Shown here: positions 1,253-23,814 of the stretch, one piece after another
Layout: every line of letters starts with the position of its first letter
Position numbering within the stretch: position 1 is the stretch's first letter
DNA from: Candidatus Uhrbacteria bacterium
GTDB taxonomy: Bacteria; Patescibacteriota; Patescibacteriia; JACRJV01
Assembly (NCBI GenBank): GCA_016215325.1
Contig: JACRJV010000003.1
Coordinates: 36,191-100,190, forward strand
Length of the DNA stretch: 64,000 bases
Direction: 5' to 3'
Position numbers and translations under genes: made by a program
Notes under the pieces: generated by a model
The model's input: the letters and a program-made list of their open reading frames with translations, nothing else
What the model was told of the DNA's origin: nothing
Databases searched by the model: none

Positions 1253-1264
1253 AAGCCATGTGAT

Positions 1265-3595: not shown

Positions 3596-3737
3596 GCGAA
3601 TAAATGAGAATCTAGACAGTTTGTTGTAGACACCGATACATAGAGAATATCGTACCACCCCCTGCTACTCGAGTCAAAAGCCAACTTGCACTCAATATAC
3701 CGCCCGAACACGCTCTCAAATTTCGATTCGCCATCGC

Positions 3738-5774: not shown

Positions 5775-5813
5775 AGTATTACAAAGATGTTATTTCAAAC
5801 AACATTTATCCAT

Positions 5814-7848: not shown

Positions 7849-7864
7849 CGTAGTATCTTACTGA

Positions 7865-9907: not shown

Positions 9908-9914
9908 ACAATGT

Positions 9915-11009: not shown

Positions 11010-11919
11010 ATGAAATGTTCTTTTCTTGCACAAGCCGAGCGATATCGGCAATAGTGATGTATTGGAGCTCCCTCCCCTGTACTCGGGCTTCTTGTGAAAT
11101 AAAAACAATATTGGCTATTGCCTCCTTACAATCGAACGAAATGAGAGGATGTTTTGTACCTCGCTCCAACAACTCGGAGGGATGGACGATCGCGACCAAC
11201 AACTCTTCCTGTTGAATGCTCTGGACAATTGATTCTTTTACAATTGCATTGCGATAAGACAAATTGAGGTATCGAAACAAACCGCTGCGGTCATAACTCG
11301 CCTTCGTATAAATCATCGACATCGGTACCTCGAGAATCGGATGTGCGGGAGCGCTAGGGATTCTGTAATCGTGAAGTGACGGGAAATACGGTTCGCTTGG
11401 CGTTCCGGTCCAGTCTAATGTTCTTTCTCGATCATGACGAACTCTGCCCGGCAAGGCGGTAGAATCGACCCGGAGTCCCCACCCCGCGAGTGCGGCCATT
11501 AAAGAATTGCTGTGGAACGCATTGCCGACTCGCACAGAAGCGCAATGAACTTCTTGCTCTTGGAGCGCTTGGAATGATGCCTGAAGTTCATCCAACTCAG
11601 TGACATGAGGGTGCCAACCAATCTCATCACCGCACTGCGCGCGACCACGAAGAAACGTCTTGAATCGCTCAAATAGATAGAGCGATGTGCCATAGATCCG
11701 GTAGAGCCCCGTATCAGAACGCACAAACCAAGTAAATCTCGGCCGCCGACCTCTGGAATCTTCAAGACGCGCAGTATCCACTGCGGTAAGTAACGATGGA
11801 ATCCCCTGCTCAACCCCACGCCACGAAATATTCAGCGCGGGTCCAAATATTGAAGTGTCAAAATTATCGGGATCGAGATCAATGGTGATGGCAACATAGA
11901 GAGGTGATTCAGCCATATC
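10978..11919 (-). CDS. Polysaccharide deacetylase (CE4/NodB-like) family protein
   Basis: VAITIDLDPDNF N-terminal motif and His-rich segments (GWHPHV) typical of CE4 deacetylases; start trimmed to MAESPLY. Confidence 0.5.
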   Translation of the reverse strand, partial: DMAESPLYVAITIDLDPDNFDTSIFGPALNISWRGVEQGIPSLLTAVDTARLEDSRGRRPRFTWFVRSDTGLYRIYGTSLYLFERFKTFLRGRAQCGDEIGWHPHVTELDELQASFQALQEQEVHCASVRVGNAFHSNSLMAALAGWGLRVDSTALPGRVRHDRERTLDWTGTPSEPYFPSLHDYRIPSAPAHPILEVPMSMIYTKASYDRSGLFRYLNLSYRNAIVKESIVQSIQQEELLVAIVHPSELLERGTKHPLISFDCKEAIANIVFISQEARVQGRELQYITIADIARLVQEKNISYAPNVPQTRS

Positions 11920-12547
11920 ATTTTTTCCCCCAGCCTTGAAAATCTTTGTACAAATAAACGGCAAATTCAAAAAGGGGGTAATCGTGTCGGAGTGCCACCC
12001 TTTTTGTCAAGCTCTTACAAAAAGAAAAAATCTCTTCAGGACTATAATAATGCAAATGTGGTTCCTTAAAATCAACATACTTCGTCAGCATATCGATGAC
12101 GACCCCTTTCCGGCAAAGCGCATAACTGCGAGTGAGCACATCTCGCAGAACCTTCTCATTATCATTATACGCGAGCGCATTATTAAACGTTTGTGAAGAA
12201 ACGATGTAATCAAACGTACCAGGGACAGTGTCAGTCTGAATATCTGCAACAAGAAATGTCAGGTCAGGGAATTGTTCCTGGCAGATGTTTATAAATTGCG
12301 GACAAATGTCAATACCGGTGTATTGAACGTGAAGGCCCTGATCTTTGAGGTACGTATAGAAATCCGCGAATCCACACCCAATATCCAAGATCGATTGATC
12401 CTCAAGGTTGCCAACGTCGGCGAGCACCTTGAATCGCATTTGTTGGCGTTCGCGATTACCAGATGCTAAGGCCCTGACATCAACTCCATACGCCTCTAAG
12501 CGAACCTTATACCGTTCGATGATCCGCTGTTTATCTCTTGCATCCAT
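11918..12547 (-). CDS. Class I SAM-dependent methyltransferase
   Basis: SAM-binding motif ILDIGCGFADF followed by acidic loop YTGIDI; 209 aa. Confidence 0.7.
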   Translation of the reverse strand: MDARDKQRIIERYKVRLEAYGVDVRALASGNRERQQMRFKVLADVGNLEDQSILDIGCGFADFYTYLKDQGLHVQYTGIDICPQFINICQEQFPDLTFLVADIQTDTVPGTFDYIVSSQTFNNALAYNDNEKVLRDVLTRSYALCRKGVVIDMLTKYVDFKEPHLHYYSPEEIFSFCKSLTKRVALRHDYPLFEFAVYLYKDFQGWGKK

Positions 12548-12559: not shown

Positions 12560-13750
12560 CTATCCAAGTTCGATAACGACTGCTTGTTCGGCTTGGGCCA
12601 AACGAGCCTCGGCCTCTTCTGCGTTTTCGGCCATCGAAATGATGTGCCCGATGCGATCGGCACCAGAAGTTAATGTTCGCACGGGATCTCCGGGTTTCAC
12701 ATAGATCTCCATTTCATAGATTCCCTCCATCGCTCGTGCTGTTTCAACACCAGTGATGGCATGGATGCGCCCGCTAGACGGGGAGGCAAAGAATTTTATC
12801 GATGAAGCCAGTTGCTTCGTGGGGATGAGATCGGGCGGTAGGCCCAACGAAGCTTTAATCGTCGCTTGGATGAGATCAATACCAGAAATCATTGGGAGTA
12901 TGTCAGTAAAAACCTTGAACCCGGGGCCTCGCGCCGCTAGTTCAACTGGAACGGGTCCGTCTTTTGTCATCATGAGCTCCATATGCACTGGCCCAGTAGT
13001 AATTCCCACTGCAGTAATCGCATGCTTTGCCACAGCGATAATACGCTGTTGAACGAGAGAAGGATACCGCGATGGGAAGGTTACTTGAATATCTAAAAGG
13101 TAGGGTGGAGGTGTTCTTTTTTTATCAGAAAGACCAATGATACGAATCGTTCCCCGATCGACGAATGCCTCCACGCTCACTTCTATACCCTCCATAAAAT
13201 CTTCCACAACGACTTTCTTTTTCTGAGAATACCCAATGGCACATTCGTATGCTTCTTTCAACTCCATTTCATGGGTCACTTTTCGTACGCCCCGGCTGCC
13301 TGCACTATCCGCAGGCTTAACAACCACCGGCAGTCCGATTTTATCAACAACAGCAAGTAAGGTGGAAAAGTCTAAAACAGGGTATGATGTCGGGGAAGGT
13401 ACCCCGTGGGCCACAAATGCCTGACGCATGAGTGCTTTATCGGTACACCGCTCAGCGACTGACACCGGAATCCCGGGTAATTGGAGTGCTTCGGCAATCG
13501 CCGCAACCGTTTTTACCGTAACGTCGGAGGCAACTGTAACCACCCCGTCAATGGAACAGGAACGCGCTATCTCCAGATTTTGTTCAATATCCTTTACATC
13601 CACAACAAATGCTCTATCCGCATATCGTAACCCCGGCGCCTCTGCGCTCCCATCTGTTGCCACGACCGCGAGTCCCATCTTTTTTGCGGTCTGAATCCCC
13701 TTCAACTGGAAAGGGCCGGCGCCGATGCACAGAAGTGTTTTGGTGTTCAT
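12560..13750 (-). CDS. ATP-grasp domain ligase (carboxylate-amine ligase type)
   Basis: PVVVKPADSAGSRGV and EEFMEGIEVSVEAF-like ATP-grasp core; 396 aa; embedded between pseG-like and methyltransferase. Confidence 0.7.
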   Translation of the reverse strand: MNTKTLLCIGAGPFQLKGIQTAKKMGLAVVATDGSAEAPGLRYADRAFVVDVKDIEQNLEIARSCSIDGVVTVASDVTVKTVAAIAEALQLPGIPVSVAERCTDKALMRQAFVAHGVPSPTSYPVLDFSTLLAVVDKIGLPVVVKPADSAGSRGVRKVTHEMELKEAYECAIGYSQKKKVVVEDFMEGIEVSVEAFVDRGTIRIIGLSDKKRTPPPYLLDIQVTFPSRYPSLVQQRIIAVAKHAITAVGITTGPVHMELMMTKDGPVPVELAARGPGFKVFTDILPMISGIDLIQATIKASLGLPPDLIPTKQLASSIKFFASPSSGRIHAITGVETARAMEGIYEMEIYVKPGDPVRTLTSGADRIGHIISMAENAEEAEARLAQAEQAVVIELG

Positions 13751-14763
13751 ACTAATGATGCATGGCGTATGAGTTCCTTTCGGATAATCTCAAGCACGCG
13801 CTCTCTCCCGTGACCATCGACAAGTTGCTGTGCTCGATGACCCATGGCTTCGCGATCGTGCCAATGCTTAATAAGCCTCTGGACGCGTTGTACATGATTC
13901 CCCTGCGTTGTCTGCCGCGATTCTAGCAGAAGTACCCCTCCCTTCTTCGCAATGCTTCTGGCAAGCAGGAGTTCCGCATTATTTTGAGGAATAATCACAC
14001 ATGGACAACCGAGGGCCATTAATTCCGCCAAAGTGACTCCAGCTCCACAAAATGCGATATCGATGGAACCCATGAGCGCGCCCATCTCTTGAACATTCGT
14101 CTCGATTCTGTATCGATGGTTCTTCCCAAGCCGATATTCCACTCCTTTGCGAAATTTGGGTCCCACAATAACATACACGCTTACCGGAGGGTGTGCAAGA
14201 CGCTCAAGAATAGCAATGGATTTCTGCGTGTTATTGCGAGGGTCTGCACCGCCAAATGTCAATAACACCCGCCTGGCCATACCCTGAGAAAATGATTTTT
14301 GCTTCCGATACGACAGCACCTCGTCCCGCACAATAGAATACTCGAGCCCTTCATAAATTCTCCTAAACAAAACGCTTTGGCCCTTCTTTAGATTATGATT
14401 GTAAATGTTGATTGCCGCGCAGATGCGTGGATCTTGGTAGTAAAAATAATCAAGTGCGACTACCGGTGGGTGAGGAACGCCGTAGAATGACTCCATCATC
14501 CCCAGCGCATACGGCTTGTCATAGATAATCAGATTTGGGTAATAAGAAAGAATGGTCTGTCGGAGAGTACCCTGAACAATATTCCGCACACCCTCTTGCT
14601 GCAGTTTCCGATACACCTGCCTCGTTACCCCTGCTGCGTGAAAAATCACCTCATGGTTGAGTGCCAACGCACGATACAGACTGATATCGCGCACAATATG
14701 CCCCAAGCCTTGGAGGTGACTTCCGTAACTACTTATTAGAATAGTATAGTGTTGGTGTTTCAT
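13747..14763 (-). CDS. pseG: PseG-like UDP-sugar hydrolase (GT-B fold, MurG-like)
   Basis: ILISSYGSHLQGLGHIVRDISL matches the PseG N-terminal G-GH--RD motif; LLTFGGAD and C-terminal GAGVTLAEL collinear with C. jejuni PseG. Confidence 0.65.
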   Translation of the reverse strand: MKHQHYTILISSYGSHLQGLGHIVRDISLYRALALNHEVIFHAAGVTRQVYRKLQQEGVRNIVQGTLRQTILSYYPNLIIYDKPYALGMMESFYGVPHPPVVALDYFYYQDPRICAAINIYNHNLKKGQSVLFRRIYEGLEYSIVRDEVLSYRKQKSFSQGMARRVLLTFGGADPRNNTQKSIAILERLAHPPVSVYVIVGPKFRKGVEYRLGKNHRYRIETNVQEMGALMGSIDIAFCGAGVTLAELMALGCPCVIIPQNNAELLLARSIAKKGGVLLLESRQTTQGNHVQRVQRLIKHWHDREAMGHRAQQLVDGHGRERVLEIIRKELIRHASLV

Positions 14764-15818
14764 GCATCGAACGTATCCGTTGTCACCGGATCAAATGCTT
14801 CCATATTAACACGCGCCCGCTTCCCAATCACCCGATCGAGATCCTTCGGCAAAAGTCCAAGGGCAGGCCGCACGATGGAGAGCATTTCTCGCTTGATGAT
14901 GTCTCCTTTTTTAATGGCTCGATTAGTAAAGATACTCCTCCGCCCTCTCCTGTAATAGGTGAGTTCGCTTTCGGCAACGCATTTTTGTGGTCGACCAATT
15001 GCCTGTTCGACGTCCCGAATTCCGCGCACCATTGCCGCGAGCTCTGCCGGTTCAAGGGCGAACTTATGATCCGGTCCCGGAAGATTCCTATCCAGTGTAA
15101 AATGCTTTTCGTAAATACTCGCTCCTCGCGCAACCGCAGCGATAGGAATGGTGAGACCTATGGTGTGATCAGAATATCCGATCGGACACATGAACTGTTC
15201 ACGCATGACGTCCATGGCAGCCAGATGGAGATCATTCATCGGGGGAGGATATCCAACACCACAATGCAGGAGCGCATACTGTGTGTTGCCGGTTTGTTCC
15301 ACTGCTTCAACGGCATCCCGTATTTCTTCAATCGTCGCCATTCCTGTTGAAAGGATCAGCGGTTTTCCGGTCTGCGCCGTGTAGCGAATCAAGGGGAGGT
15401 GGGTAATCTCATACGACGCAATCTTATAAAATGGGGCGTCAATTGCCTCAAGTGCATCCACCGCGTCCTCATCGAAAGGAGTCGCCGCAAACATAATATC
15501 TCGCTGCTTCGCATACTCAGTAAGACGCGGTAACCATTCTCTCGGTAATTCGACCTTTCGATAGAGTTCATGGAGCGTTTTTCCATATCGTCCAAATGTG
15601 TCACTCCCAAGGTCGACGGTAGGATCCTGTGTAGCAGCGGCCATAGTGTCGGCAGAAAATACTTGAAATTTTACCACATCCGCTCCCGACTCTTTTGCCG
15701 CATCAATGAGTTGTAATGCTTGTTCAAAATTACGGTCATGGTTACTACCCGCTTCAGCAATTATAAAGCAGGGTGCGTTATCGCCAATGCGTCGCCCTTG
15801 TATTGTGAGTGCGTGCAT
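14760..15818 (-). CDS. pseI: Nonulosonic acid synthase (NeuB/PseI/LegI family) with SAF domain
   Basis: PCFIIAEAGSNHDRN signature, SAF C-terminal domain; 4-nt ATGA overlap with pseG-like gene. Confidence 0.85.
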   Translation of the reverse strand: MHALTIQGRRIGDNAPCFIIAEAGSNHDRNFEQALQLIDAAKESGADVVKFQVFSADTMAAATQDPTVDLGSDTFGRYGKTLHELYRKVELPREWLPRLTEYAKQRDIMFAATPFDEDAVDALEAIDAPFYKIASYEITHLPLIRYTAQTGKPLILSTGMATIEEIRDAVEAVEQTGNTQYALLHCGVGYPPPMNDLHLAAMDVMREQFMCPIGYSDHTIGLTIPIAAVARGASIYEKHFTLDRNLPGPDHKFALEPAELAAMVRGIRDVEQAIGRPQKCVAESELTYYRRGRRSIFTNRAIKKGDIIKREMLSIVRPALGLLPKDLDRVIGKRARVNMEAFDPVTTDTFDA

Positions 15819-15824
15819 AAGGTT

Positions 15825-16583
15825 TTACGATGAACCCTTCTCTGCGCTCAGTGACTTCAGGAGACCTTCATTACGAACAATATGACTGTTGGTTGCCATC
15901 ATCTCAGGATGTGCCGAAAGGTATTGCAGAACGTCTTCTCCTGTAAACTCCGGATGCCGCGGGTACAGGGCCTCAATAATTATTTTTACTACCTCAAAAT
16001 CCTCGGGCTCATCCACGGTAATCCGAAATCTGCTGTCATCGCTTCCATTGTCAAGGGTATGCTTACGAAAGAACTCAGAATGACGATGCAAATACAGTGT
16101 AGCATGCTCGCGCTCAGAAGGTTTTATCGCCTCTTTCCAAGCGCGCTCGAGTGCCGCCAATGTAAATATTTCACAATCAAGTCCTTCGGCAAATGTTGGA
16201 CCGCTATGAACAAAATCATACGCCCCATTCTGGAATGTCGTAACAAGCCGATCGACGATTTGAGGATCGATCAGTGGACAATCACCAGTAATCCGGACAA
16301 TTGGGTCAATCGAAAACCGCAAGGCAGTTTGATAATAGCGATCCAGCACATCCTGCTCTAATCCACGAAATACCGGAACGCGTTGCTGCGCGCAGAAATC
16401 CACAATTTGGTCATCCTCAACATTCGTCGTTGTCGCTACAATAATGCGATTAATTCCAGTTGCACGCCGGAGACGCTCAAGCTGATACTCAAGGAGGGGC
16501 CGACCAAGTACTGTTTTGAGTACTTTACCCGGAAGCCTTGTCGAAGTCATCCTCGCTTGGATAATTGCGCCGGTCGTGGCCAT
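15825..16583 (-). CDS. pseF: CMP-nonulosonic acid cytidylyltransferase (PseF/NeuA/SpsF family)
   Basis: N-terminal AIIQARMTSTRLPGKVL cytidylyltransferase motif; 252 aa. Confidence 0.8.
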   Translation of the reverse strand: MATTGAIIQARMTSTRLPGKVLKTVLGRPLLEYQLERLRRATGINRIIVATTTNVEDDQIVDFCAQQRVPVFRGLEQDVLDRYYQTALRFSIDPIVRITGDCPLIDPQIVDRLVTTFQNGAYDFVHSGPTFAEGLDCEIFTLAALERAWKEAIKPSEREHATLYLHRHSEFFRKHTLDNGSDDSRFRITVDEPEDFEVVKIIIEALYPRHPEFTGEDVLQYLSAHPEMMATNSHIVRNEGLLKSLSAEKGSS

Positions 16584-17512
16584 ACTAATGGATTTACTAT
16601 ACGTTCATTAATGTCCCGAAAGTGCTCACGTACATATCCGACAAGAGCCGGAGGGTATTCACGTTGCCAAGCCCGACAATTTGTCTCTACCTGGTCAAGG
16701 GTCTCAGCCCCAAACAAAATCTTTGCCTGTGGAAATGCCAGCTTCAAATAGCCAAACGCAAATTCCTGCCGCGTGAGCTCAAATATTCCTGCCGCCTCTT
16801 CAACAAGTTCGAGTGAAGGGCGAGCGAACGTCATTGTCTCAGGAAGTTGGCGCGAATCGATAAAGAGTAATCCTTGAAGAAATGCGCTTCGAATATAGAC
16901 CGTCGCGCTCTTTTTTTTCGCGAGCTCAAAAACCCCTGCACTCTCAAATCTCCTGTCTAAAATGTTGGTTGGAAGTTGAATTATGGTAAGCCCATCCAAC
17001 TCAAGTGCTCGGAGCGCTATGGAAGGAGTGTACACAGAAACCCCCACATAATCAACATAACCTTGAGAGACTAAATCCTTGAGTATTCTCCCCAACCCCT
17101 TCCCCCATAATCCAAGCAGTTCTTCGCGATGCAAAAGTACACCGTGGAGTTTCTTCACTCCAAGACGTACACACGACGCTTGGATCGCATCAGTAATTGC
17201 CCTCGCATCTAAGTAATCAAGGTTTGGATCGAGCTTTGTAATGAGCTTCGCCGTGCCCCCCGCGTTCAATACTCTAAGAGCTTCCCCTAAAACAGCTTCA
17301 CTCTCTCCATACCCCGGGGCAGTATCAAACTCGTCGATTCCGTGCTCCAAAGCAGTACGGACAATTTCTTCCGCTATCTCATGATTCGGCTGCCCATTTT
17401 TATTAGCGATGCCATAGGGCATACCAAGCTGCACTGTCCCAAGTACGAGTGCTGGAAGACTCTTTCTCGCGTTACTAGTCATATCATTATGCAAGACGCC
17501 GAAATCCTGCAT
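16547..17512 (-). CDS. Aldo/keto reductase
   Basis: LGTVQLGMPYG and DTAPGYGESE AKR motifs. Confidence 0.75.
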   Translation of the reverse strand: MQDFGVLHNDMTSNARKSLPALVLGTVQLGMPYGIANKNGQPNHEIAEEIVRTALEHGIDEFDTAPGYGESEAVLGEALRVLNAGGTAKLITKLDPNLDYLDARAITDAIQASCVRLGVKKLHGVLLHREELLGLWGKGLGRILKDLVSQGYVDYVGVSVYTPSIALRALELDGLTIIQLPTNILDRRFESAGVFELAKKKSATVYIRSAFLQGLLFIDSRQLPETMTFARPSLELVEEAAGIFELTRQEFAFGYLKLAFPQAKILFGAETLDQVETNCRAWQREYPPALVGYVREHFRDINERIVNPLVWPRPAQLSKRG

Positions 17513-18812
17513 TCGCAGGTTTACCGTTTAGCCTTTTTTCCACGTCTCCAGCACGAATTGCAACAGCGATTTCCCCAAACGCACGGTCCGTTGCCTCCAA
17601 ATACTTTACAACATGATCACTCGTATGTGCGTACATTGCATAGCAAAGATTGGATGCTAAAAATCCTTGCTCCAACATAAGCTGTACATATAATGCTTTG
17701 ATCGCCAGAGGATGTTCATGCTCAAAGTTGAAGTGACTTGCGGGATAAATACCGCCGACGTTGATTGTAAGGGCGTGACGCTGCGCAATCTGCTTCCAGC
17801 CCTCTTGTACCTGTTTCCCAATCTTAACCAAATGTTTACCTACATTCAACGTACGATGCTTCTGTATTGTGGCAAGCGCCGCCGTTGGCCCAACCCTCTC
17901 CGACCACATCGTGCTGCTCATAAACGTAAGTTCTGCAGCATCCATAAATTGCCCTTTCCCAATAACCGCAGCAATCGGATACCCATTCCCCATCGCCTTC
18001 GAGAACACCGCGATATCAGGAGTAAGTCCATACAAAAGATGGGCACCTCCGGAATTTAACCGGAACGCCGCGGACACTTCATCCACAACAAGGACAGCTC
18101 CTGCTTCATCCGCAAGCGCACGAACCCCCGGGAGAAATTCTGGCGTTGGGTCACTTCCTCGAATCGGTTCAATTACAATTGCCGCCAAATCCTTGCCGTG
18201 CTCTTTAATAATCGTTTTTAATATGTCAAGGCGGTTATAGGGGAACGGTACGACGGTGCCGCGAAGCCCTCGCGGCACTCCTCTTGGCTCTAACCCCGGA
18301 AGAAGAAGATCATTGAGTCCATCGGGTCGCTCAAGATTCACAGCAAGATACCAATCATTCCAACCATGGTACCCACAAACTGCCACAATATCACGACCAG
18401 TGAAGGCTCGTGCAATCCGAACCGCAATGGCCATCCCCTCCCCTCCTCCTCGCGCGAAACGCACCTTTTCTGCCCACGGATGAATCTCACAAAGCAAATC
18501 CGCGAGCTCGACTTCTTCAGGGCAATTCAGCGAGCTACTGGAGCCATTGTCTATAGCTGCTGTAACCGCGGCATTCACATCAGGATCGGCATACCCCAGC
18601 ACATTTGCACCAATCCCACCAATACTCATGTCAATGTACCGGTTGCCATCTAAGTCCCACACTTCCACCCCCTTCGCTCGCTGATAATACCCCGGCCATA
18701 CTCCAAGCGAAAACATGTCAGGACGCTTAGATAACAGCTGATTCATTCCTGGGATTCTACGTTTCGACGCTTCTTGCATTGCTAGACTTTTGGTGAGATT
18801 CATAAGCTTCAT
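17487..18812 (-). CDS. Class III aminotransferase, glutamate-1-semialdehyde aminomutase-like
   Basis: DLDGNRYIDMSIG, GGGEGMAIAVRIAR and VVDEV...FSKAMGNG (PLP-Lys) motifs; 441 aa. Confidence 0.75.
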   Translation of the reverse strand: MKLMNLTKSLAMQEASKRRIPGMNQLLSKRPDMFSLGVWPGYYQRAKGVEVWDLDGNRYIDMSIGGIGANVLGYADPDVNAAVTAAIDNGSSSSLNCPEEVELADLLCEIHPWAEKVRFARGGGEGMAIAVRIARAFTGRDIVAVCGYHGWNDWYLAVNLERPDGLNDLLLPGLEPRGVPRGLRGTVVPFPYNRLDILKTIIKEHGKDLAAIVIEPIRGSDPTPEFLPGVRALADEAGAVLVVDEVSAAFRLNSGGAHLLYGLTPDIAVFSKAMGNGYPIAAVIGKGQFMDAAELTFMSSTMWSERVGPTAALATIQKHRTLNVGKHLVKIGKQVQEGWKQIAQRHALTINVGGIYPASHFNFEHEHPLAIKALYVQLMLEQGFLASNLCYAMYAHTSDHVVKYLEATDRAFGEIAVAIRAGDVEKRLNGKPANAGFRRLA

Positions 18813-20941
18813 ATATGAGACCTAACGAGGGCGGTAATTTCGTCGATAACCCTGCCAACATCGCGATCTGTCATCAGCGGACTCAGCGGTATAGAGAGAC
18901 ACCGCCGATAATACTCTTCGGCACGAGGACAATCCCCCCAATGCGTCCCAAACTGCTGCTGATAAAAAGGTTGTGTATGGACAGGTATGTAGTGAACTTG
19001 GGTTTGGATTCCACGATTGTTTAGATGCACCATGCATTCCGCACGACTTCTTCCAATTTTTTCAAAATCGATTCCGAGGACATAGAGATGAAAAATACTT
19101 TCACAATCCGGTGACTCGAACGGTCTCTGAATGCATGGAAGGTCTTGAAAAGCGCTCTGGTATTGTCGGACAATGGCTCGTCTCCTTGTCTGAAATAATT
19201 CTAATTTAGCAATTTGCGAAATCCCCAACGCGCATTGGATATCGGTAAGACGGTAATTATAGCCAAGTTCTTGCTGTTCATAGTACCAAGGATTAACCAT
19301 ACCCTCCCCTGAGCCACTGAATCCCTGTTGAAGATACACAAACTCCTTGGGGTCATTGGTGATCCCATGGGACCGTAACTTCCGCACCATCCTATCCAAG
19401 ACCGGATCATTGGTAAGCACCGCTCCACCTTCTCCGGTTGTGATGTGTTTTACTGGATGAAAGCTCATCACTACCATATCAGAAAATCGACAGGAACCCA
19501 CCGGCGTACCCTTATACCGAGAACCGAACACATGGCAGGCATCTTCGATAATAACGATACGGTGCCGATACTTCGCCTCCGCTTCTTTCACAATCTGGGC
19601 AATTGATTCCATATCACAACTCTGCCCGGCAAAGTGGACTGGAATAACGGCCTTGGTGCGTTGCGTAATTTTGCGCGCAATCTCAGCTGGAGCGATATTA
19701 TACGTATGCGGATCGATATCCGCAAAGATAGGCCTCCCACCACAATACACAACACAGTTTGCCGAGGCGACAAAGGTGTTCGGAGAGGTGATCACTTCAT
19801 CTCCAGGTCCTATGCCCGCAGCACGACAAGCAAGATGTAACGCTGAGGTGCCGGAATTCACCGCCACTGCGTAGCGTGACTCTGTAACGTTAGATATCGC
19901 CTCTTCAAAATGCTTCACGCGAGGTCCTTGAGTAAGGTGAGTCGACTTCAATGCCACTGTCACCGCTTCAATGTCATCCCCATCGATAGTGTGTCTCCCA
20001 TACGAAAGATATTTAGAGGGCTGCCGTATCGTTCCCGAGTTACGAAGAATATCTGTTCTTTGGTAATCTTTATAAAAACGTTCAATGGAATCCTTGATTG
20101 TGGGCATCGGCGTTGCCAACGCGTGTTCTAACTTATCGACACATAGTGATAGATTATGGCCCCTTGTTGCCAAAAAAGTATGCTCACTTAAAGAGTGTTT
20201 GATCACTTGTGAGGGATCAAAGCCGAATGTTGTTGCAACGAGGCGGGCGAACTCATACTTCGAACATGAATCGTGTGTGCCAATATTGTAGATCCCTTGC
20301 AAATCAGCACGCAGGGCCCATTCAATCACTCGTGCAACGTCAACGGCATAGAGCGAAGAAAAAACCGCATCATAAAATCCAGAAACAATCTCTCCCCGTT
20401 GAAGACGATGGAGGATCCATTCCGCCAAACTCTCTTTACTGAGAATATTCCAGCCAAAAAAATTTGCCCTAAGAATCAAAGCTGCGCTGACTCGCTCACA
20501 TTCGCGCTCGCCAAAATACTTGGTGAGGCCATAATAATTCTGAGGCGCGACAGGATCCAATTCGGAGTAATCCCCCTTGGTGCCTTGATAGACAGCATCG
20601 GTTGATATGTACACGAGTTTCGTTGGGGTTCCTCTGATGGCCTCGACAACATGTTTCGTTGTGAGATGGTTCATCTGCTGGCAAAGAGCCGTCTCCCGTT
20701 CGCATTGATCGACATTGGTAAGGGACGCGCAGTGTATTACAACATCCGGTTGAATTTCACTCACGATTCGTCTCGCCTCTTGCTGCTCACTCAAGTCACA
20801 TTGAACTGTAGAGGCCCCCTCAATAATAAGAGGATGCTGCCAATACAACCCAATGATTTCAAACGTATCCTTTAAAAAAAGAGCGAGATTACTCCCGAGA
20901 AGTCCACTCACGCCGGTAATAAGGATGCGCTGACGGGCCAT
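18809..20941 (-). CDS. Bifunctional fusion: N-terminal RmlD-like NAD(P)-dependent sugar reductase + C-terminal PseC/DegT-like aminotransferase
   Basis: N-term ILITGVSGLLGSNL...YISTDAVY...YGLTKY (SDR extended YxxxK); C-term VIPVHFAGQSCDM...SFHPVKHITTGEGGAV (DegT PLP-Lys). Confidence 0.75.
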   Translation of the reverse strand: MARQRILITGVSGLLGSNLALFLKDTFEIIGLYWQHPLIIEGASTVQCDLSEQQEARRIVSEIQPDVVIHCASLTNVDQCERETALCQQMNHLTTKHVVEAIRGTPTKLVYISTDAVYQGTKGDYSELDPVAPQNYYGLTKYFGERECERVSAALILRANFFGWNILSKESLAEWILHRLQRGEIVSGFYDAVFSSLYAVDVARVIEWALRADLQGIYNIGTHDSCSKYEFARLVATTFGFDPSQVIKHSLSEHTFLATRGHNLSLCVDKLEHALATPMPTIKDSIERFYKDYQRTDILRNSGTIRQPSKYLSYGRHTIDGDDIEAVTVALKSTHLTQGPRVKHFEEAISNVTESRYAVAVNSGTSALHLACRAAGIGPGDEVITSPNTFVASANCVVYCGGRPIFADIDPHTYNIAPAEIARKITQRTKAVIPVHFAGQSCDMESIAQIVKEAEAKYRHRIVIIEDACHVFGSRYKGTPVGSCRFSDMVVMSFHPVKHITTGEGGAVLTNDPVLDRMVRKLRSHGITNDPKEFVYLQQGFSGSGEGMVNPWYYEQQELGYNYRLTDIQCALGISQIAKLELFQTRRRAIVRQYQSAFQDLPCIQRPFESPDCESIFHLYVLGIDFEKIGRSRAECMVHLNNRGIQTQVHYIPVHTQPFYQQQFGTHWGDCPRAEEYYRRCLSIPLSPLMTDRDVGRVIDEITALVRSHI

Positions 20942-20956
20942 ACCCCAGAGTGTTTA

Positions 20957-21991
20957 TCACTTTGGAACCTCATCCATCGACCATCGGATCTGCCCTTCTG
21001 CAATATCATGGGCAACCTGCGCGACGATCGAACGTAACTCTACAACACTCATCATCCAGGGGTTCGTTCCAGAATTATACTCAAAGTCCTCAGCACATTT
21101 TTGCACGTTTGGGTAGGAAAGGGCAGGGCTGGCGGCTGCATGCGGCTGGGCGATCACGTAGGAATGATCGAATTCCCAGGTGTGTCGAGCATCGTCCCGA
21201 CTAATGAGCAGCTCATGAATCTTTTCACCCGGACGAATGCCAACCACTTCTTGTCGACATTCCGGCGCCACCGCAGAAGCCAAATCGGTAATCTTCATTG
21301 ATGGAATTTTCGGTACAAAAATTTCTCCACCACGAGCGATCTCGAATACATTAAGAACAAAACGTACCCCTTGCTCAATAGTAATCCAAAAACGTGTCAT
21401 CTGCGGATCTGTGATGGGGAGCACACCTGTTTTGGATCGCTCTAAGAAAAATGGAATGACCGAACCACGGCTCCCGACCACATTACCGTATCGAACCACC
21501 GCGAAAATAGTTTCTTTCGACCCCCGATAAACATTCGCAGCAGTGAAGAGTTTATCTGAACAAAGTTTCGTTGCTCCATAGAGGTTGATAGGGTTACAGG
21601 CCTTATCAGTCGATAAAGCAACCACTTTTTTTACATTGGCAGTAAGCGCCGCCTCGATAATATTCATCGCTCCCAACACATTGGTTTTGATCGCTTCGGA
21701 GGGATTATATTCTGCCGCAGGTACCTGTTTGAGTGCCGCGGCATGAATAACATAATCAACCCCATCAAAGGCACGCAGGAGCCGTTCTTTGTCTCGGACA
21801 TCACCGATGAAATAACGAATACAGGGGTATTTCGATGTACTCCAACGTTGCGACATCTCGAATTGCTTTAACTCATCACGACTGAATACTATCAATCGCC
21901 TTGGTTTGTACTCTTGGAGTATCGCTTCGACCATCTTTTTCCCAAACGATCCTGTCCCCCCAGTAATGAGTACTGTTTTATCATTGAACAT
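20957..21991 (-). CDS. pseB: UDP-N-acetylglucosamine 4,6-dehydratase (inverting), PseB/FlaA1
   Basis: MFNDKTVLITGGTGSFGK N-terminus and overall collinearity with PseB/CapD short form. Confidence 0.9.
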   Translation of the reverse strand: MFNDKTVLITGGTGSFGKKMVEAILQEYKPRRLIVFSRDELKQFEMSQRWSTSKYPCIRYFIGDVRDKERLLRAFDGVDYVIHAAALKQVPAAEYNPSEAIKTNVLGAMNIIEAALTANVKKVVALSTDKACNPINLYGATKLCSDKLFTAANVYRGSKETIFAVVRYGNVVGSRGSVIPFFLERSKTGVLPITDPQMTRFWITIEQGVRFVLNVFEIARGGEIFVPKIPSMKITDLASAVAPECRQEVVGIRPGEKIHELLISRDDARHTWEFDHSYVIAQPHAAASPALSYPNVQKCAEDFEYNSGTNPWMMSVVELRSIVAQVAHDIAEGQIRWSMDEVPK

Positions 21992-22508
21992 AAGACGAAA
22001 TCGTTACTGTGGAACGAGGCGCATTGTCATGACCTCGAAACGCCCACCAACGATACATAAAAAAATTCCAACTAACCACGAATGGACCCGCAATAAGCTT
22101 TGCGATTATGTCATGGAAGCCCAAGAATTCAACACCGCTGTACAGAATCCCTTGAGCAATCGCAATACCACCAATGGTACTCATCACAAACTTCAGATAT
22201 TGAGCAGCACATCCACTCTGTTGTTGTTGGAACGCCCAATGTTTATTCCAAAAAAAACTCCACGTCACAACAATAGAAAATGAAATTCCGTTTGCTATCA
22301 AATAGTGCTCCTTCCAAAACATCCATCCACGAGTAAGCATCGAGTATATTGTAAAATCAATCAACGTATTCCCAACCCCGATAATGCCATACCGAATAAA
22401 GGAGTGAAACAAGGCAAGCACACGAACGTTGGTTTTAATTACGATAACAGATCGGCACCAAACGAACAACAACTCACAGTCGAAGGTACGAGACGTCCCG
22501 ACCCTCAA
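21981..22508 (-). CDS. GtrA-family membrane protein (polysaccharide synthesis/translocation associated)
   Basis: ~125-aa core with four predicted TM helices and RYGIIGVGNTLIDFTIY N-terminal GtrA pattern; true start probably a GTG/TTG downstream of the listed start (overlap with upstream gene). Confidence 0.5.
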   Translation of the reverse strand: MRVGTSRTFDCELLFVWCRSVIVIKTNVRVLALFHSFIRYGIIGVGNTLIDFTIYSMLTRGWMFWKEHYLIANGISFSIVVTWSFFWNKHWAFQQQQSGCAAQYLKFVMSTIGGIAIAQGILYSGVEFLGFHDIIAKLIAGPFVVSWNFFMYRWWAFRGHDNAPRSTVTISSYVQ

Positions 22509-23814
22509 ACAGTTGACCGCGAGAAAACACTCCCTTCACATCCATAAATACGCCGGGGTTATGCAGCAGGTATTCAAATTGCTGCGCATTCATTGAACGG
22601 AATACGCTGTGGGGCGAACACACCACCACGGCATCTGCTCGAGGGATATCGCGCAATTCCTGATAATACGAAATGGCACACGTCTCTCGGAGATCCTCGA
22701 TGGCAACAAGCGGATCGTAGCCACTGACCTTGACGCCGTACTCCTGCAATGCTCTTACGACGTCAAACGCTTTCGAGTTGCGAATATCGCGCACATCCTC
22801 TTTAAATGTAAGCCCCATGACCAGCACATGCGCATTTTGAATGGGTTTTCCCTGCTTAATAATCGCCTTCACTGTACGATCGGCCAAATGCTGCGCCATT
22901 GAATCATTAATATGCCGCCCGGCCAAAATCACCTGCGGGTCATAGCCTAGTTCTTGCGCTTTATGCGTTAAATAATACGGGTCAACCCCAATGCAATGCC
23001 CACCGACCAATCCGGGGGAATATTTATGGAAATTCCATTTGGTTCCGGCTGCATCAAGAACCTCACGCGTATCGATCCCAAGTTTCTCAAAAATCAACGA
23101 GCACTCATTGACGAGAGCAATGTTGAGGTCGCGTTGAATATTTTCAATCACTTTCGCCGCTTCCGCAGTTTTAATGTTGGATGCCCGGTGAACGCCATTG
23201 ACGCAAATGCGCCCATACACCATGGCAATTTTTTCAAGTGTTAGCGCATCCATCCCGGAAACAATTTTTACGATTTTATCAACGGTGTGTTCGTGATCAC
23301 CCGGATTGATGCGCTCCGGAGAGTACCCGATAAACCAATCCTTTCCGCACACCAACCCAGAACCCTTCTCAATAATCGGTACGCAGATATCTTCCGTGAC
23401 ACCCGGGTACACTGTCGATTCAAACACAACGATAGTCCCTGAACGGATATGGGCACCGATGGTTGTGGATACTTCAATCACCGGAGTTAAATCTGGTTGC
23501 TTTGCCTTTGTGATGGGTGTCGGCGGAGTCGCAATAATAAAATTCGCCCGCTCAAGTACTGCCGGGTCAGTGCTCAACTCAAGCATGCTCTCCGATAGCT
23601 GCTGCCGCGTTATCTCTCCGCCAGGATCATTACCGTCCTGAAGCGCCTTTACCCTTTTTTCGGAACGATTATACCCTATGACGGGCGCCCATTCGGTTCT
23701 GCCAAACGCCACTGCTAATGGCAAACCCACGTAACCCAAACCAACCACGGCTATCCGAGGTGTCCATGCAGGTTTTTCGATTTCGCTCTCAAGCCCGAGA
23801 GGAAGCATAGACAT
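22474..23814 (-). CDS. UDP-N-acetyl-D-hexosamine 6-dehydrogenase (WecC/WbpA/TviB nucleotide-sugar dehydrogenase family)
   Basis: IAVVGLGYVGLPLA NAD motif, catalytic GGHCIGVDP; 446 aa. Confidence 0.85.
   Translation of the reverse strand: MSMLPLGLESEIEKPAWTPRIAVVGLGYVGLPLAVAFGRTEWAPVIGYNRSEKRVKALQDGNDPGGEITRQQLSESMLELSTDPAVLERANFIIATPPTPITKAKQPDLTPVIEVSTTIGAHIRSGTIVVFESTVYPGVTEDICVPIIEKGSGLVCGKDWFIGYSPERINPGDHEHTVDKIVKIVSGMDALTLEKIAMVYGRICVNGVHRASNIKTAEAAKVIENIQRDLNIALVNECSLIFEKLGIDTREVLDAAGTKWNFHKYSPGLVGGHCIGVDPYYLTHKAQELGYDPQVILAGRHINDSMAQHLADRTVKAIIKQGKPIQNAHVLVMGLTFKEDVRDIRNSKAFDVVRALQEYGVKVSGYDPLVAIEDLRETCAISYYQELRDIPRADAVVVCSPHSVFRSMNAQQFEYLLHNPGVFMDVKGVFSRGQLFEGRDVSYLRL

What the first reader, a model, noticed from the sequence alone, without database searches (positions are those of the whole stretch)
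13747..21991. Pseudaminic-acid-type nonulosonic acid pathway (pseB, pseC-like, pseG, pseI, pseF) in a small-genome, probably monoderm bacterium
Recognisable homologues of PseB (MFNDKTVLITGGTGSFGK), a DegT aminotransferase, PseG (G-GH--RD motif), NeuB-family synthase (PCFIIAEAGSNHDRN) and a CMP-transferase are contiguous and co-oriented, with 4-nt start/stop overlaps. A canonical PseH N-acetyltransferase is absent, so the N-acyl group is likely supplied by the neighbouring GNAT/FemAB/FkbH systems. The product is probably a cell-wall glycopolymer or protein glycan attached by the LCP enzyme at 54719-56152.
Basis: partly seen in the sequence, partly recalled or inferred. Interest (0 to 1): 0.6.

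Follow-up and report, generated by a model that had tools for sequence, protein, structure and literature searches.

The report
Pseudaminic-acid-type sugar operon with extra enzymes
A tiny-genome groundwater bacterium (Candidatus Uhrbacteria) carries a real operon for a pseudaminic-acid-type nine-carbon surface sugar, and inside it sits a widespread but uncharacterised three-enzyme cassette that probably converts the activated sugar into a rarer, extra-aminated form.

Summary
The genes are real and lie at the stated coordinates, all on the minus strand. The interval holds seven ORFs, not five.

- **Firmly identified:** PseB and PseC both pass NCBIfam equivalog cut-offs.
- **Weaker matches:** the NeuB-family synthase only just passes the PseI cut-off. 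The PseG-like protein is divergent, but its family profile hits C. jejuni PseG best (E 9e-21), not MurG or a 2-epimerase.
PseC is fused to an intact RmlD-like reductase domain. A GSAM-like class-III aminotransferase (AT-III) and an aldo/keto reductase (AKR) lie between PseC and the cytidylyltransferase.
- **Mislabelled:** the "pseF" is SpsF-type, not PseF.
- **Absent:** no PseH is present.

AKR, the SpsF-type cytidylyltransferase and AT-III form a cassette found in more than 600 species and many viral contigs. It also occurs as AKR::SpsF::AT-III fusion proteins. AKR and Gfo/Idh/MocA oxidoreductases are mutually exclusive partners of SpsF–AT-III (p = 3e-10). Published EpaAB and ElaABC systems modify C8 of CMP-nonulosonates with the same enzyme classes.

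I infer that the cassette oxidises and then transaminates CMP-Pse, probably at C8. This is untested. The host is Candidatus Uhrbacteria. The proposed link to the LCP enzyme has no support.

The parts
20957..21991 (-). PseB, UDP-GlcNAc 5-inverting 4,6-dehydratase (344 aa)
   Evidence: TIGR03589 scores 506 bits against a cut-off of 407.75. Best PDB match is H. pylori FlaA1 2gn4 at 371 bits, against Pen 6bwc at 243 and PglF-type at about 130. The STDK...YGATK motif is present. NCBI names it MBI5134711.1 'UDP-N-acetylglucosamine 4,6-dehydratase (inverting)'.
20060..20941 (-). RmlD-like extended-SDR domain, the N-terminal half of the 710-aa fusion ORF 18809-20941
   Evidence: RmlD_sub_bind Pfam match E 2e-44 over aa 5-294. 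TIGR01214 scores 147 bits, below its cut-off of 224. Best PDB match is RmlD 3sc6 at 99 bits. The motifs TGVSGLLGS, ISTDAVY and YGLTK are intact. NCBI leaves this domain unannotated.
18830..20008 (-). PseC aminotransferase domain, the C-terminal half of the same fusion ORF
   Evidence: TIGR03588 scores 491 bits against a cut-off of 423.5. The LegC-family model scores 242 against 420. Full-length fusion homologues share 53-58% identity over 98-100% of the query.
17487..18812 (-). GSAM-like class-III (fold-type I) aminotransferase, 'AT-III' (441 aa)
   Evidence: Aminotran_3 Pfam match E 2e-39. It is below every NCBIfam cut-off. PDB matches are GSAM at about 170 bits and GenB C-6' aminotransferases at about 140 bits. 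The PLP lysine in FSKALGNGYP is conserved. It is 67-68% identical to proteins of other phyla.
16547..17512 (-). Aldo/keto reductase (321 aa; NCBI start gives 311 aa)
   Evidence: Aldo_ket_red Pfam match E 9e-25. D, Y, K and H residues at the expected positions can be read in the sequence. Homologous domains are fused to SpsF-like, RmlD::PseC and AT-III domains.
15825..16583 (-). SpsF-type CTP_transf_3 cytidylyltransferase, the presumed CMP-nonulosonate synthetase (252 aa)
   Evidence: CTP_transf_3 Pfam match E 6e-30. The PseF model scores only 25 bits against a cut-off of 205.7. Best PDB match is 6oew 'cytidylyltransferase' at 150 bits. The conserved AIIQARMxSxRLPGK N-terminus requires the 252-aa start. 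No other cytidylyltransferase was detected in the window.
14760..15818 (-). NeuB-family nonulosonate synthase, PseI-like (352 aa)
   Evidence: PseI model TIGR03586 scores 345.7 against 340.25 (pass). The NeuB model TIGR03569 scores 357.3 against 399.65 (fail). Identity is 39.9% to B. subtilis SpsE, 35.1% to PseI 8h2c and 33.0% to NeuB. NCBI names it 'pseudaminic acid synthase'.
13747..14763 (-). Divergent PseG/SpsG-type UDP-sugar hydrolase (338 aa)
   Evidence: TIGR03590 scores 69 bits, below its cut-off of 153.5. The family profile's best PDB hit is C. jejuni PseG 3hbm, E 9e-21, over the full length. G19, G21, H22 and R25 are invariant in the family alignment. The AF2 model (pLDDT 83) has a GT-B fold.
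12560..13750 (-). ATP-grasp L-amino-acid-ligase-type enzyme, translationally coupled to the PseG-like gene; candidate N-acylating or aminoacylating enzyme
   Evidence: LAL_C2 Pfam match E 1e-22 and ATP-grasp_4 E 1e-18. It overlaps the PseG-like gene by 4 nt. SpsF::ATP-grasp fusions exist elsewhere.
11918..12547 (-). Class I SAM-dependent methyltransferase
   Evidence: Methyltransf_25 Pfam match E 2e-12.
4641..11108 (-). Tailoring genes: second DegT-type aminotransferase (9915-11108), 4-hydroxy-2-oxovalerate-aldolase-like 680-aa protein (7865-9907), FemAB-like GNAT (6835-7848), PLP-enzyme-like protein (5814-6884), GNAT_9 protein (4641-5774)
   Evidence: Searches give hits to TIGR04421 (FemAB_IMCC1989), TIGR04422 and PRK08195 (322 bits). 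Homologues of the FemAB-like, PLP-like and GNAT_9 genes co-occur with AT-III and AKR in L018 and L007.
85..3658 (-). ACP-based acyl-donor set: AcpS-like PPTase, FkbH, ACP-like ORF, MaoC-like ORF, SDR
   Evidence: FkbH TIGR01686 scores 304 bits. The SDR matches adh_short_C2. The ACP, MaoC and AcpS assignments rest on motif reading only.
21981..23814 (-). Upstream genes in the same orientation: GtrA-like membrane protein and TviB-like UDP-GlcNAc 6-dehydrogenase
   Evidence: TviB model 427 bits, below its cut-off of 592.

Best explanation
The operon makes a CMP-activated 5,7-diamino-3,5,7,9-tetradeoxy-nonulosonic acid of the pseudaminic (L-glycero-L-manno) series and then modifies it.

**Steps backed by family tests**
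1. [quoted passage not shown]
2. The PseC domain aminates C4.
3. A PseG-type hydrolase removes UDP.
4. A PseI-like synthase condenses the free sugar with PEP.

**Steps inferred**
- The C4 amine is acylated by a non-PseH enzyme. Candidates are the coupled ATP-grasp ligase, the FemAB-like and GNAT proteins, or the FkbH/ACP system.
- The SpsF-type cytidylyltransferase replaces PseF and makes the CMP-sugar.
- The AKR and the class-III aminotransferase work together with that cytidylyltransferase at the nonulosonate or CMP-nonulosonate level. The AKR oxidises a secondary hydroxyl, C8 by analogy with EpaA/EpaB and ElaA. The aminotransferase then converts the ketone to an amine. The product would be a 5,7,8-triamino-type nonulosonate, which the downstream acyl, aminoacyl and methyl transferases decorate.

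The role of the RmlD-like domain is not resolved.

**How sure I am, by part**
- About 0.85 that this is a Pse-type CMP-nonulosonate operon.
- About 0.6 that AKR and AT-III act on the (CMP-)nonulosonate.
- About 0.35 that the outcome is amination at C8.
For: **Core pathway**
- PseB and PseC pass equivalog cut-offs. PseB is FlaA1-type.
- The PseG family profile hits 3hbm best.
- The synthase passes the PseI cut-off and fails the NeuB cut-off.

**Cytidylyltransferase**
- It is the only cytidylyltransferase detected in the island.
- B. subtilis SpsF, and sps-like PseF genes of Clostridium, are treated as CMP-nonulosonate synthetases (PMC7439481; PMC13317340).

**The cassette**
- AKR, SpsF and AT-III lie adjacent in most of 51 genomic and 46 viral loci that carry AT-III plus SpsF. 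PseB and PseC usually lie upstream and NeuB downstream.
- Fusion proteins exist as AKR::SpsF::AT-III, SpsF::AT-III, SpsF::AKR, Gfo/Idh/MocA::SpsF, SpsF::NeuB and RmlD::PseC::AKR.
- Among the 97 loci with AT-III plus SpsF, 36 have AKR only, 38 have Gfo/Idh/MocA only, 1 has both and 22 have neither. About 15 with both would be expected (Fisher p = 3.4e-10). The exclusion also holds separately in the genomic and viral sets.

**Precedents**
- EpaA (CTP_transf_3::AKR) with EpaB converts Pse5Ac7Ac to its 8-epimer, shown by NMR (PMC12053666).
- ElaA (Gfo/Idh/MocA) is proposed to oxidise C8-OH of CMP-Leg (PMC13656337).
- An 8-amino-3,5,7,8,9-pentadeoxy-nonulosonic acid occurs in the Flexibacter (Tenacibaculum) maritimus O-antigen (PMC3210612).
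- AT-III's relatives include sugar aldehyde/ketone aminotransferases such as GenB.
Against: - No enzyme here has been assayed. The position attacked (C8) rests on analogy only.
- The AKR could be the reductase rather than the oxidase of a C8 epimerisation, as one reading of EpaA allows.
- 22 of the 97 loci have neither AKR nor Gfo/Idh/MocA. Some of these (Blautia schinkii L081, Bacteroidales L037 and L039) also lack PseC. There AT-III may simply aminate the PseB-derived ketone.
- About 20 AT-III homologues sit in loci with no nonulosonate genes.
- The synthase is closest in the PDB to SpsE, which is assigned to a legionaminic pathway. In a crude NJ tree it falls outside the clade of the solved PseI.
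- The PseG-like protein is below its NCBIfam cut-off.
- Loci used for the exclusivity test are not phylogenetically independent.
- I could not obtain the EpaA sequence, so orthology with the window's pair is untested.
Confidence: 0.5

Rival explanations
1. C8 epimerisation instead of amination. The SpsF-type transferase plus AKR act as a split EpaA. A second redox enzyme (the RmlD-like SDR domain, or the SDR at 85-858) plays EpaB. The product would be CMP-8-epi-pseudaminic acid. AT-III would serve another purpose, such as making an acyl or aminoacyl substituent.
For: - The EpaA architecture (CTP_transf_3::AKR) with an SDR partner yields 8ePse.
- SpsF::AKR fusions without AT-III are common.
- An intact extra SDR domain is present in the operon.
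Against: - AT-III is fused directly to SpsF, and to AKR::SpsF, in many proteins.
- AKR and Gfo/Idh/MocA exclude each other as partners of AT-III. This fits one oxidase feeding a transaminase better than a two-redox-enzyme epimerase.
- The SDR at 85-858 sits with FkbH, ACP and AcpS.
- The RmlD-like domain is absent from most cassette loci, present in 13 of 51.
Confidence: 0.2
2. A plain pseudaminic acid pathway. AKR, AT-III and the RmlD-like domain would be unrelated passengers, or would only make the N-acyl donor (for example a hydroxy- or amino-acyl group from a semialdehyde). The nonulosonate skeleton would be ordinary Pse with an unusual N7 acyl group.
For: - Loci such as L015 contain a complete PseB, PseC, GNAT, PseG, NeuB and SpsF set, with AKR and AT-III as extras.
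- AT-III resembles enzymes acting on small amino-aldehydes, GSAM and GntE.
- About 20 homologues occur outside nonulosonate loci.
- PseH is missing here, so an alternative acyl route is needed.
Against: - Rosetta-stone fusions tie both enzymes to the cytidylyltransferase, not to any acyltransferase or ligase.
- The AKR/Gfo-Idh-MocA exclusivity mirrors published CMP-nonulosonate oxidoreductases.
Confidence: 0.15
3. A legionaminic-acid-type (or other stereoisomer) pathway of the B. subtilis Sps kind, because the synthase, cytidylyltransferase and hydrolase are SpsE-, SpsF- and SpsG-like.
For: - The best solved relative of the synthase is SpsE, at 234 bits and 39.9% identity.
- SpsF-like and SpsG-like partners are present. 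JGI names a homologue of the PseG-like protein SpsG.
- Sps genes are assigned to Leg synthesis (PMC7439481).
Against: - The first two enzymes set the stereochemistry, and they are PseB (5-inverting) and PseC by curated cut-offs. LegB and LegC models score far below theirs.
- The Sps pathway starts with a PglF-like retaining dehydratase, which is absent from the operon.
- Clostridium Pse clusters also use sps-like PseC, PseF and PseG.
Confidence: 0.07

Closest known systems
Canonical CMP-pseudaminic acid pathway PseB-PseC-PseH-PseG-PseI-PseF (Campylobacter jejuni, Helicobacter pylori)
   Same: PseB and PseC are clear members by NCBIfam equivalog cut-offs. A PseG-type hydrolase and a PseI-like synthase follow. 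The start from UDP-GlcNAc and the overall chemical logic are the same.
   Different: - There is no PseH.
- The cytidylyltransferase is SpsF-type, not PseF-type.
- PseC is fused to an RmlD-like reductase domain.
- Two extra enzymes (AKR and a class-III aminotransferase) are embedded in the operon.
- PseG is below its family cut-off.
EpaA/EpaB of Acinetobacter baumannii prophages (Pse5Ac7Ac to 8-epi-Pse5Ac7Ac; PMC12053666)
   Same: EpaA is a CTP_transf_3::Aldo_ket_red fusion. The window encodes these two domains as adjacent genes. Homologous fused proteins share 31-44% identity over 88-99% of the concatenated window pair. Both systems act downstream of a Pse pathway.
   Different: The partner here is a PLP aminotransferase rather than the SDR EpaB. 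I therefore predict amination rather than epimerisation. Direct similarity to EpaA could not be measured.
ElaA/ElaB/ElaC of A. baumannii KL49 and Vibrio vulnificus (CMP-Leg to CMP-8-epi-Leg; PMC13656337)
   Same: The logic matches: a cytidylyltransferase, then oxidation of C8-OH on the CMP-sugar. In about half of the related loci, Gfo/Idh/MocA enzymes of the ElaA type replace the AKR next to SpsF and AT-III.
   Different: ElaB is a NeuA/PseF-type transferase. The keto intermediate is re-reduced by an SDR, not transaminated. That system belongs to the Leg series, not the Pse series.
Bacillus subtilis SpsC-G/SpsM legionaminic acid pathway (PMC7439481)
   Same: The window has SpsE-like, SpsF-like and SpsG-like enzymes and uses UDP-linked intermediates.
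   Different: Sps starts with a retaining PglF-like dehydratase and has an SpsD acetyltransferase. It has no AKR, no AT-III and no RmlD-like domain.
Kdo8N formation by KdnB (alcohol oxidase) and KdnA (aminotransferase) in Shewanella; gentamicin GenQ/GenB1 (both recalled from memory, not checked here)
   Same: Both convert a sugar hydroxyl to an amine by a two-step dehydrogenase-plus-transaminase route. This is the chemistry I propose for AKR plus AT-III.
   Different: The enzyme families and substrates differ. Those systems act on primary alcohols.

Membership tests
Pseudaminic acid pathway | [quoted passage not shown] | tested here: met
   TIGR03589 scores 506 bits against 407.75. FlaA1 2gn4 scores 371 bits, above Pen at 243. 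The [ST]DK...Yx3K motif is present.
Pseudaminic acid pathway | PseC: UDP-4-keto-6-deoxy-L-AltNAc C4 aminotransferase | tested here: met
   TIGR03588 scores 491 bits against 423.5 over aa 312-704 of the fusion. LegC scores 242 against 420.
Pseudaminic acid pathway | PseH: GNAT N-acetyltransferase for the C4 amine | tested here: not met
   No hit to TIGR03585, the PseH model number as I recall it, appeared among the families listed for the 20 window proteins scanned against NCBIfam. tblastn with the Acetyltransf_3 GNATs typical of related loci finds nothing in the window.
Pseudaminic acid pathway | PseG: UDP-sugar hydrolase with a catalytic His in an N-terminal GxGHxxR motif | tested here: inconclusive
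   It is below the curated cut-off, 69 against 153.5. The family profile nevertheless hits C. jejuni PseG best and over the full length (E 9e-21), with the motif aligned and invariant. The fold search shows only a generic GT-B fold.
Pseudaminic acid pathway | PseI: pseudaminic acid synthase | tested here: inconclusive
   TIGR03586 scores 345.7 against 340.25, a marginal pass. Identities are 39.9% to SpsE, 35.1% to PseI and 33.0% to NeuB. In the NJ tree it lies outside the clade of the solved PseI.
Pseudaminic acid pathway | PseF: CMP-pseudaminic acid synthetase of the NeuA/PseF type | tested here: not met
   TIGR03584 scores 25 bits against 205.7. The protein is SpsF/KdsB-like. No NeuA-like gene is in the window.
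Sialic acid (Neu5Ac) pathway | NeuB synthase above cut-off plus a NeuC hydrolysing 2-epimerase | tested here: not met
   TIGR03569 scores 357.3 against 399.65. No 2-epimerase was found. The PseG-family profile scores about 20 bits on 2-epimerases.
EpaA/EpaB-type CMP-nonulosonate C8 modification | CTP_transf_3 domain coupled to an Aldo_ket_red domain | tested here: met
   The genes 15825-16583 and 16547-17512 are adjacent and overlapping. Fused homologues are abundant. The EpaA architecture is taken from PMC12053666.
EpaA/EpaB-type CMP-nonulosonate C8 modification | Classical SDR partner (EpaB/AciE-like) next to the transferase | tested here: not met
   The adjacent partner is a class-III aminotransferase. 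The only classical SDR (85-858) lies 15 kb away beside FkbH, ACP and AcpS.
EpaA/EpaB-type CMP-nonulosonate C8 modification | Sequence orthology to EpaA (SBS22546.1), and activity on C8 | not testable with these tools
   The EpaA sequence is not in any collection I could query. The phage database gave no AKR hit.
Pen/Pal two-enzyme variant (Bacillus thuringiensis) | A Pen-type 5,6-dehydratase followed by Pal | tested here: not met
   The dehydratase is FlaA1/PseB-type, not Pen-type. No chain named Pal appears among the 60 best solved relatives listed for the RmlD-like domain.

The most novel reading that the evidence does not exclude
The conserved cassette of AKR (or Gfo/Idh/MocA), SpsF-type cytidylyltransferase and class-III aminotransferase may be the so far unknown biosynthetic route to 8-amino (5,7,8-triamino) nonulosonic acids. 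It would activate a Pse-type sugar with CMP, oxidise C8-OH and transaminate the ketone. If so, this chemistry is spread across hundreds of bacterial and archaeal species, CPR bacteria and many phages and giant viruses. Such sugars would then be far more common on microbial and viral surfaces than the single known example from Tenacibaculum maritimum suggests.
Probability: 0.3. Interest if true: 0.75.

Novelty: new variant of a known kind. Interest (0 to 1): 0.55.

Why it matters
Nonulosonic acids decorate flagella, pili, S-layers, capsules and O-antigens. They also control recognition by phages and immune systems.

- **An unexplored pathway variant.** This operon shows that a common 'Pse cluster' architecture is not the textbook six-enzyme pathway. 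Automatic annotation hides the difference. NCBI calls the cytidylyltransferase a 'glycosyltransferase family protein', calls the hydrolase 'hypothetical', and omits the RmlD-like domain.
- **A testable assignment.** The embedded redox, aminotransferase and cytidylyltransferase cassette is widespread in bacteria, archaea and viruses. No paper found in the held library characterises it as a unit. Comparative evidence gives it a concrete, testable function.
- **Relevance to CPR biology.** For CPR/Patescibacteria, which live attached to host cells, a heavily tailored acidic surface sugar is a candidate factor in attachment or phage evasion. The one targeted search of the held library (pseudaminic + Patescibacteria) returned nothing relevant.

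Tried and rejected
1. **Pen/Pal hypothesis for PseB plus the RmlD-like domain.** Rejected. The dehydratase is FlaA1-type and no chain named Pal appears among the 60 listed solved relatives of the domain. The Pen/Pal papers themselves were not held.
2. **Neighbourhood of AT-III homologues outside nonulosonate loci.** No conserved neighbours were found, so this was uninformative.
3. **Foldseek of the PseG-like model against the PDB.** It returned only a generic GT-B fold, with MurG, UGTs, 2-epimerases and PseG at similar E-values. The profile-sequence search was decisive instead.
4. **Search for EpaA in the phage collection.** The AKR gave no hit, and the SpsF-like protein gave two unannotated marine viral hits. 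The IMG/VR scan found many SpsF-like loci, but none could be named as Acinetobacter.
5. **Synthase phylogeny.** With only three solved references and a neighbour-joining tree it does not settle Pse versus Leg.
6. **Tenacibaculum maritimum O-antigen paper.** It mentions a second locus with dehydratase, aminotransferase, oxidoreductase and acetyltransferase genes. It does not give enough detail to test for the cassette.
7. **N-methyl-glutamyl idea.** From memory, ATP-grasp plus methyltransferase might add an N-methyl-glutamyl group as in C. botulinum Leg5GluNMe7Ac. That sugar is only mentioned in passing in a held paper. The idea was not tested.
8. **LCP link.** No evidence was found. The LCP gene is in a housekeeping neighbourhood.

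Full report
**What is in the interval.** All genes in 85-34391 read on the minus strand. Between 13747 and 21991 there are seven ORFs, listed here in transcription order.

| Coordinates | Length | Identity |
|---|---|---|
| 20957-21991 | 344 aa | PseB |
| 18809-20941 | 710 aa | RmlD-like::PseC fusion |
| 17487-18812 | 441 aa | class-III aminotransferase (AT-III) |
| 16547-17512 | 321 aa | aldo/keto reductase (AKR) |
| 15825-16583 | 252 aa | SpsF-type cytidylyltransferase |
| 14760-15818 | 352 aa | NeuB-family synthase |
| 13747-14763 | 338 aa | PseG-like hydrolase |

Four-nucleotide overlaps occur at 18809-18812, 14760-14763 and 13747-13750. The last one couples the next gene, an ATP-grasp ligase at 12560-13750.

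**Family assignments.**
- **PseB.** TIGR03589 scores 506 bits (cut-off 407.75). Its best solved relative is H. pylori FlaA1 at 371 bits, against 243 for the Pen 5,6-dehydratase and about 130 for PglF.
- **The fusion ORF.** Residues 5-294 are an RmlD-like extended SDR. TIGR01214 scores 147 bits, below its cut-off. The best solved relative is RmlD 3sc6. The nucleotide-binding glycines, the STD motif and YxxxK are intact. Residues 312-704 are PseC: TIGR03588 scores 491 bits (cut-off 423.5), while LegC scores 242 (cut-off 420).
- **AT-III.** It is GSAM-like and below every curated cut-off. Solved relatives are GSAM (about 170 bits) and the gentamicin C-6' aminotransferases (about 140 bits).
- **AKR.** It matches Aldo_ket_red (E 9e-25).
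- **Cytidylyltransferase.** It matches CTP_transf_3 but scores 25 bits on PseF (cut-off 205.7). Its best solved relative is the unnamed 'cytidylyltransferase' 6oew.
- **Synthase.** It passes PseI narrowly (345.7 against 340.25) and fails NeuB (357.3 against 399.65).
- **PseG-like protein.** It scores 69 bits on PseG (cut-off 153.5) and 42 on MurG.

The synthase is not a sialic-acid NeuB by the curated cut-off. KDO8P/DAHP-type enzymes score only about 20-30 bits. It cannot, however, be placed firmly. It is 39.9% identical to B. subtilis SpsE, 35.1% to the solved PseI and 33.0% to N. meningitidis NeuB. In a neighbour-joining tree it groups with synthases from other RmlD::PseC and AKR clusters, outside the clade of the solved PseI.

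For the PseG-like protein, sequence search against solved structures found nothing. An AlphaFold model (pLDDT 83) matched GT-B enzymes of all kinds equally well. A profile built from its eleven detectable homologues was decisive. It hits C. jejuni PseG 3hbm at E 8.8e-21 over nearly the full length, with the N-terminal IGxGHxxR motif aligned. MurG reaches about 49 bits on the C-terminal half only, and 2-epimerases about 20 bits. The protein is therefore a divergent PseG/SpsG-type hydrolase.

**PseH.** None of the 20 window proteins scanned against NCBIfam returned a PseH-model hit. The Acetyltransf_3 GNATs that accompany related clusters have no homologue in the window.

Candidate replacements nearby:
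- the coupled ATP-grasp ligase of the L-amino-acid-ligase type;
- a methyltransferase;
- a second DegT-type aminotransferase;
- an aldolase-like protein;
- a FemAB-like GNAT (TIGR04421-like);
- a PLP-enzyme-like protein (TIGR04422-like);
- a GNAT_9 protein;
- an FkbH, ACP, AcpS, MaoC and SDR set.

Which of these acylates N7 is not known.

**Organism.** The exact proteins are in NCBI as Candidatus Uhrbacteria bacterium (MBI5134700-MBI5134711) on a 109-kb contig.

NCBI names PseB, PseC and 'pseudaminic acid synthase'. It calls the cytidylyltransferase a 'glycosyltransferase family protein' and the hydrolase 'hypothetical'. It starts PseC at residue 279, which leaves the RmlD-like domain unannotated. 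Full-length fusions of about 715 aa, at 53-58% identity over 98-100% of the query, fill the 120 best hits listed; 7,737 proteins in all passed E ≤ 0.001. So the fusion is real.

The island (1-24 kb) has 47.9% GC, against 52.7% for the rest of the window. AT-III is 67-68% identical to proteins of Omnitrophota, Chloroflexi and Nitrospirae-type contigs. This suggests horizontal acquisition.

**The cassette.** A scan of one genome per species with an AT-III alignment found at least 600 species, covering many bacterial phyla, Methanoregula and nine CPR genomes among the best 80.

Within ±10 kb of those 80 loci, the following co-occur:

| Gene | Loci (of 80) |
|---|---|
| SpsF-like | 54 |
| NeuB | 50 |
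| PseB | 45 |
| PseC | 42 |
| AKR | 35 |
| RmlD-like domain | 15 |

The usual order is PseB, PseC, AKR, SpsF, AT-III, (PseG), NeuB. Some loci, such as L015, have a complete PseB, PseC, GNAT, PseG, NeuB and SpsF set plus AKR and AT-III. The two are therefore additions to the pathway, not replacements.

A search with the concatenated SpsF-like and AKR sequences found many fusion proteins:
- SpsF::AKR
- AKR::SpsF::AT-III
- SpsF::AT-III
- Gfo/Idh/MocA::SpsF
- SpsF::NeuB
- SpsF::GNAT and GNAT::AKR::SpsF
- SpsF::ATP-grasp

An RmlD::PseC::AKR protein also exists. An IMG/VR scan found 80 viral contigs with SpsF-like genes. Of these, 46 have an adjacent AT-III, mostly as SpsF, AT-III, PseB, DegT, NeuB.

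Clustering of neighbouring ORFs showed that a Gfo/Idh/MocA oxidoreductase is common where AKR is absent. Among the 97 loci with AT-III plus SpsF:

| Oxidoreductase partner | Loci |
|---|---|
| AKR only | 36 |
| Gfo/Idh/MocA only | 38 |
| Both | 1 (about 15 expected) |
| Neither | 22 |

Fisher's exact test gives p = 3.4e-10 overall, 7e-4 for the genomic set and 3.6e-4 for the viral set. The loci are not phylogenetically independent.

**Comparison with published systems.**
- EpaA of A. baumannii prophages is a CTP_transf_3::Aldo_ket_red protein. Together with the SDR EpaB it converts Pse5Ac7Ac to 8-epi-Pse5Ac7Ac, shown by NMR (PMC12053666).
- In ElaABC, a cytidylyltransferase makes CMP-Leg. The Gfo/Idh/MocA enzyme ElaA is proposed to oxidise C8-OH, and the SDR ElaC reduces the ketone from the other face (PMC13656337).
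- A Vibrio Pse cluster has an SpsF::AKR protein and no NeuA (PMC7371886).
- L. pneumophila Sg6/12 O-antigen clusters list PseG, a 'GSA aminomutase', an SpsF-like gene, an AKR, DegT and CapD (PMC3694923).
- Clostridium Pse clusters use sps-like PseC, PseF and PseG (PMC13317340).

None of these papers assigns a role to the class-III aminotransferase.

**Inference.** The AKR here, or Gfo/Idh/MocA elsewhere, supplies a ketone on the CMP-nonulosonate. AT-III converts that ketone to an amine. C8 is the likely site, by analogy with EpaAB and ElaABC. An 8-amino-3,5,7,8,9-pentadeoxy-nonulosonic acid of manno configuration is known from the Flexibacter (Tenacibaculum) maritimus O-antigen (PMC3210612). 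The several acyl, aminoacyl and methyl transferases downstream would then have two free amines to decorate.

This is an inference from gene linkage and analogy. No step has been assayed.

**What does not fit.**
- The RmlD-like domain is catalytically intact, yet it would compete with PseC for the same UDP-4-keto sugar. In other loci it is a separate gene after PseB, sometimes directly before NeuB with no PseC nearby.
- Minimal clusters such as PseB, SpsF, AT-III, NeuB in Blautia schinkii have no DegT-type aminotransferase and no oxidase. There AT-III may aminate the PseB-derived ketone.
- About 20 AT-III homologues lie in unrelated contexts.

**Fate of the sugar.** No nonulosonate transferase was identified. 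Three ORFs in or near the island have no significant family match: 10978-11970, 3823-4623 and 38303-39520. The LCP gene at 54719-56152 lies on the other strand beyond ftsZ, ftsA, a 3435-aa surface protein, hisS and lepB. Nothing connects it to the operon.

**Verdict.**
- The Pse-type reading is supported for the first two enzymes and is reasonable for the rest.
- The most notable content of the interval is the AKR, SpsF-type cytidylyltransferase and class-III aminotransferase cassette, together with the RmlD::PseC fusion.
- I rate it a new variant of a known kind, of moderate interest.

Noticed in passing
window 85-3658 (-): The 3' end of the island holds an SDR (85-858), a MaoC-like hotdog ORF (830-1252), a 94-aa ACP-like ORF (1265-1549), FkbH (1492-3240) and an AcpS-like phosphopantetheinyl transferase (3227-3658). 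Together they look like an ACP-tethered glyceryl-type acyl-donor system. The ACP, MaoC and AcpS calls rest on motif reading only.
   Followed up: partly
window 31941-32982 (-): The RF2 gene (prfB) ORF lacks its N-terminus. The classical CTTTGAC +1 frameshift site sits at 32976-32982, just upstream. This is probably the usual programmed frameshift.
   Followed up: partly
window 39587-49894 (-): A 3435-aa protein carries fibronectin-III, TIG, CARDB and DUF4215 domains. It is a giant surface protein and a possible glycosylation target of the island's product.
   Followed up: no
window 18809-20941 (-): The public NCBI annotation calls only a 432-aa PseC. It leaves the 278 upstream in-frame codons (the RmlD-like domain) without any protein record.
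   Followed up: yes
L086-L165 (IMG/VR viral contigs): Dozens of viral contigs, including giant-virus MAGs, carry SpsF-like, AT-III, PseB, DegT and NeuB genes. Gfo/Idh/MocA, GNAT and methyltransferase genes often accompany them. Viruses appear to encode this pathway variant frequently.
   Followed up: partly
L081 8182-12459 (Blautia schinkii DSM 10518); L037, L039: These loci hold minimal four-gene sets of PseB, SpsF-like, AT-III and NeuB. Within ±10 kb there is no DegT aminotransferase, PseG, PseH or oxidoreductase. In Blautia the set sits beside a Wzx flippase, an AMP-binding enzyme and a DUF218 protein.
   Followed up: partly
window 1-24000 versus 24001-64000: The glycan island has 47.9% GC against 52.7% for the housekeeping part of the window. 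Its AT-III is 67-68% identical to proteins from unrelated phyla. Horizontal acquisition is likely.
   Followed up: partly
window 61617-63761 (-): SecD carries an inserted PPIC-type peptidyl-prolyl isomerase domain (aa 275-390) between its P1 subdomains.
   Followed up: no
window 22474-31965 (-): Further nucleotide-sugar genes lie upstream: a TviB-like UDP-GlcNAc 6-dehydrogenase, a GalE/TviC-like epimerase, a DUF218 protein, AdoHcy hydrolase, UDP-glucose dehydrogenase, RmlD, RmlC and another epimerase/dehydratase. The surface glycan probably also contains uronic acids and rhamnose. DUF218 also recurs next to NeuB in other loci.
   Followed up: no
window 57509-59143 (+): This ORF is a fused MFS transporter/spermidine synthase-like protein (NF037959, 398 bits).
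   Followed up: no
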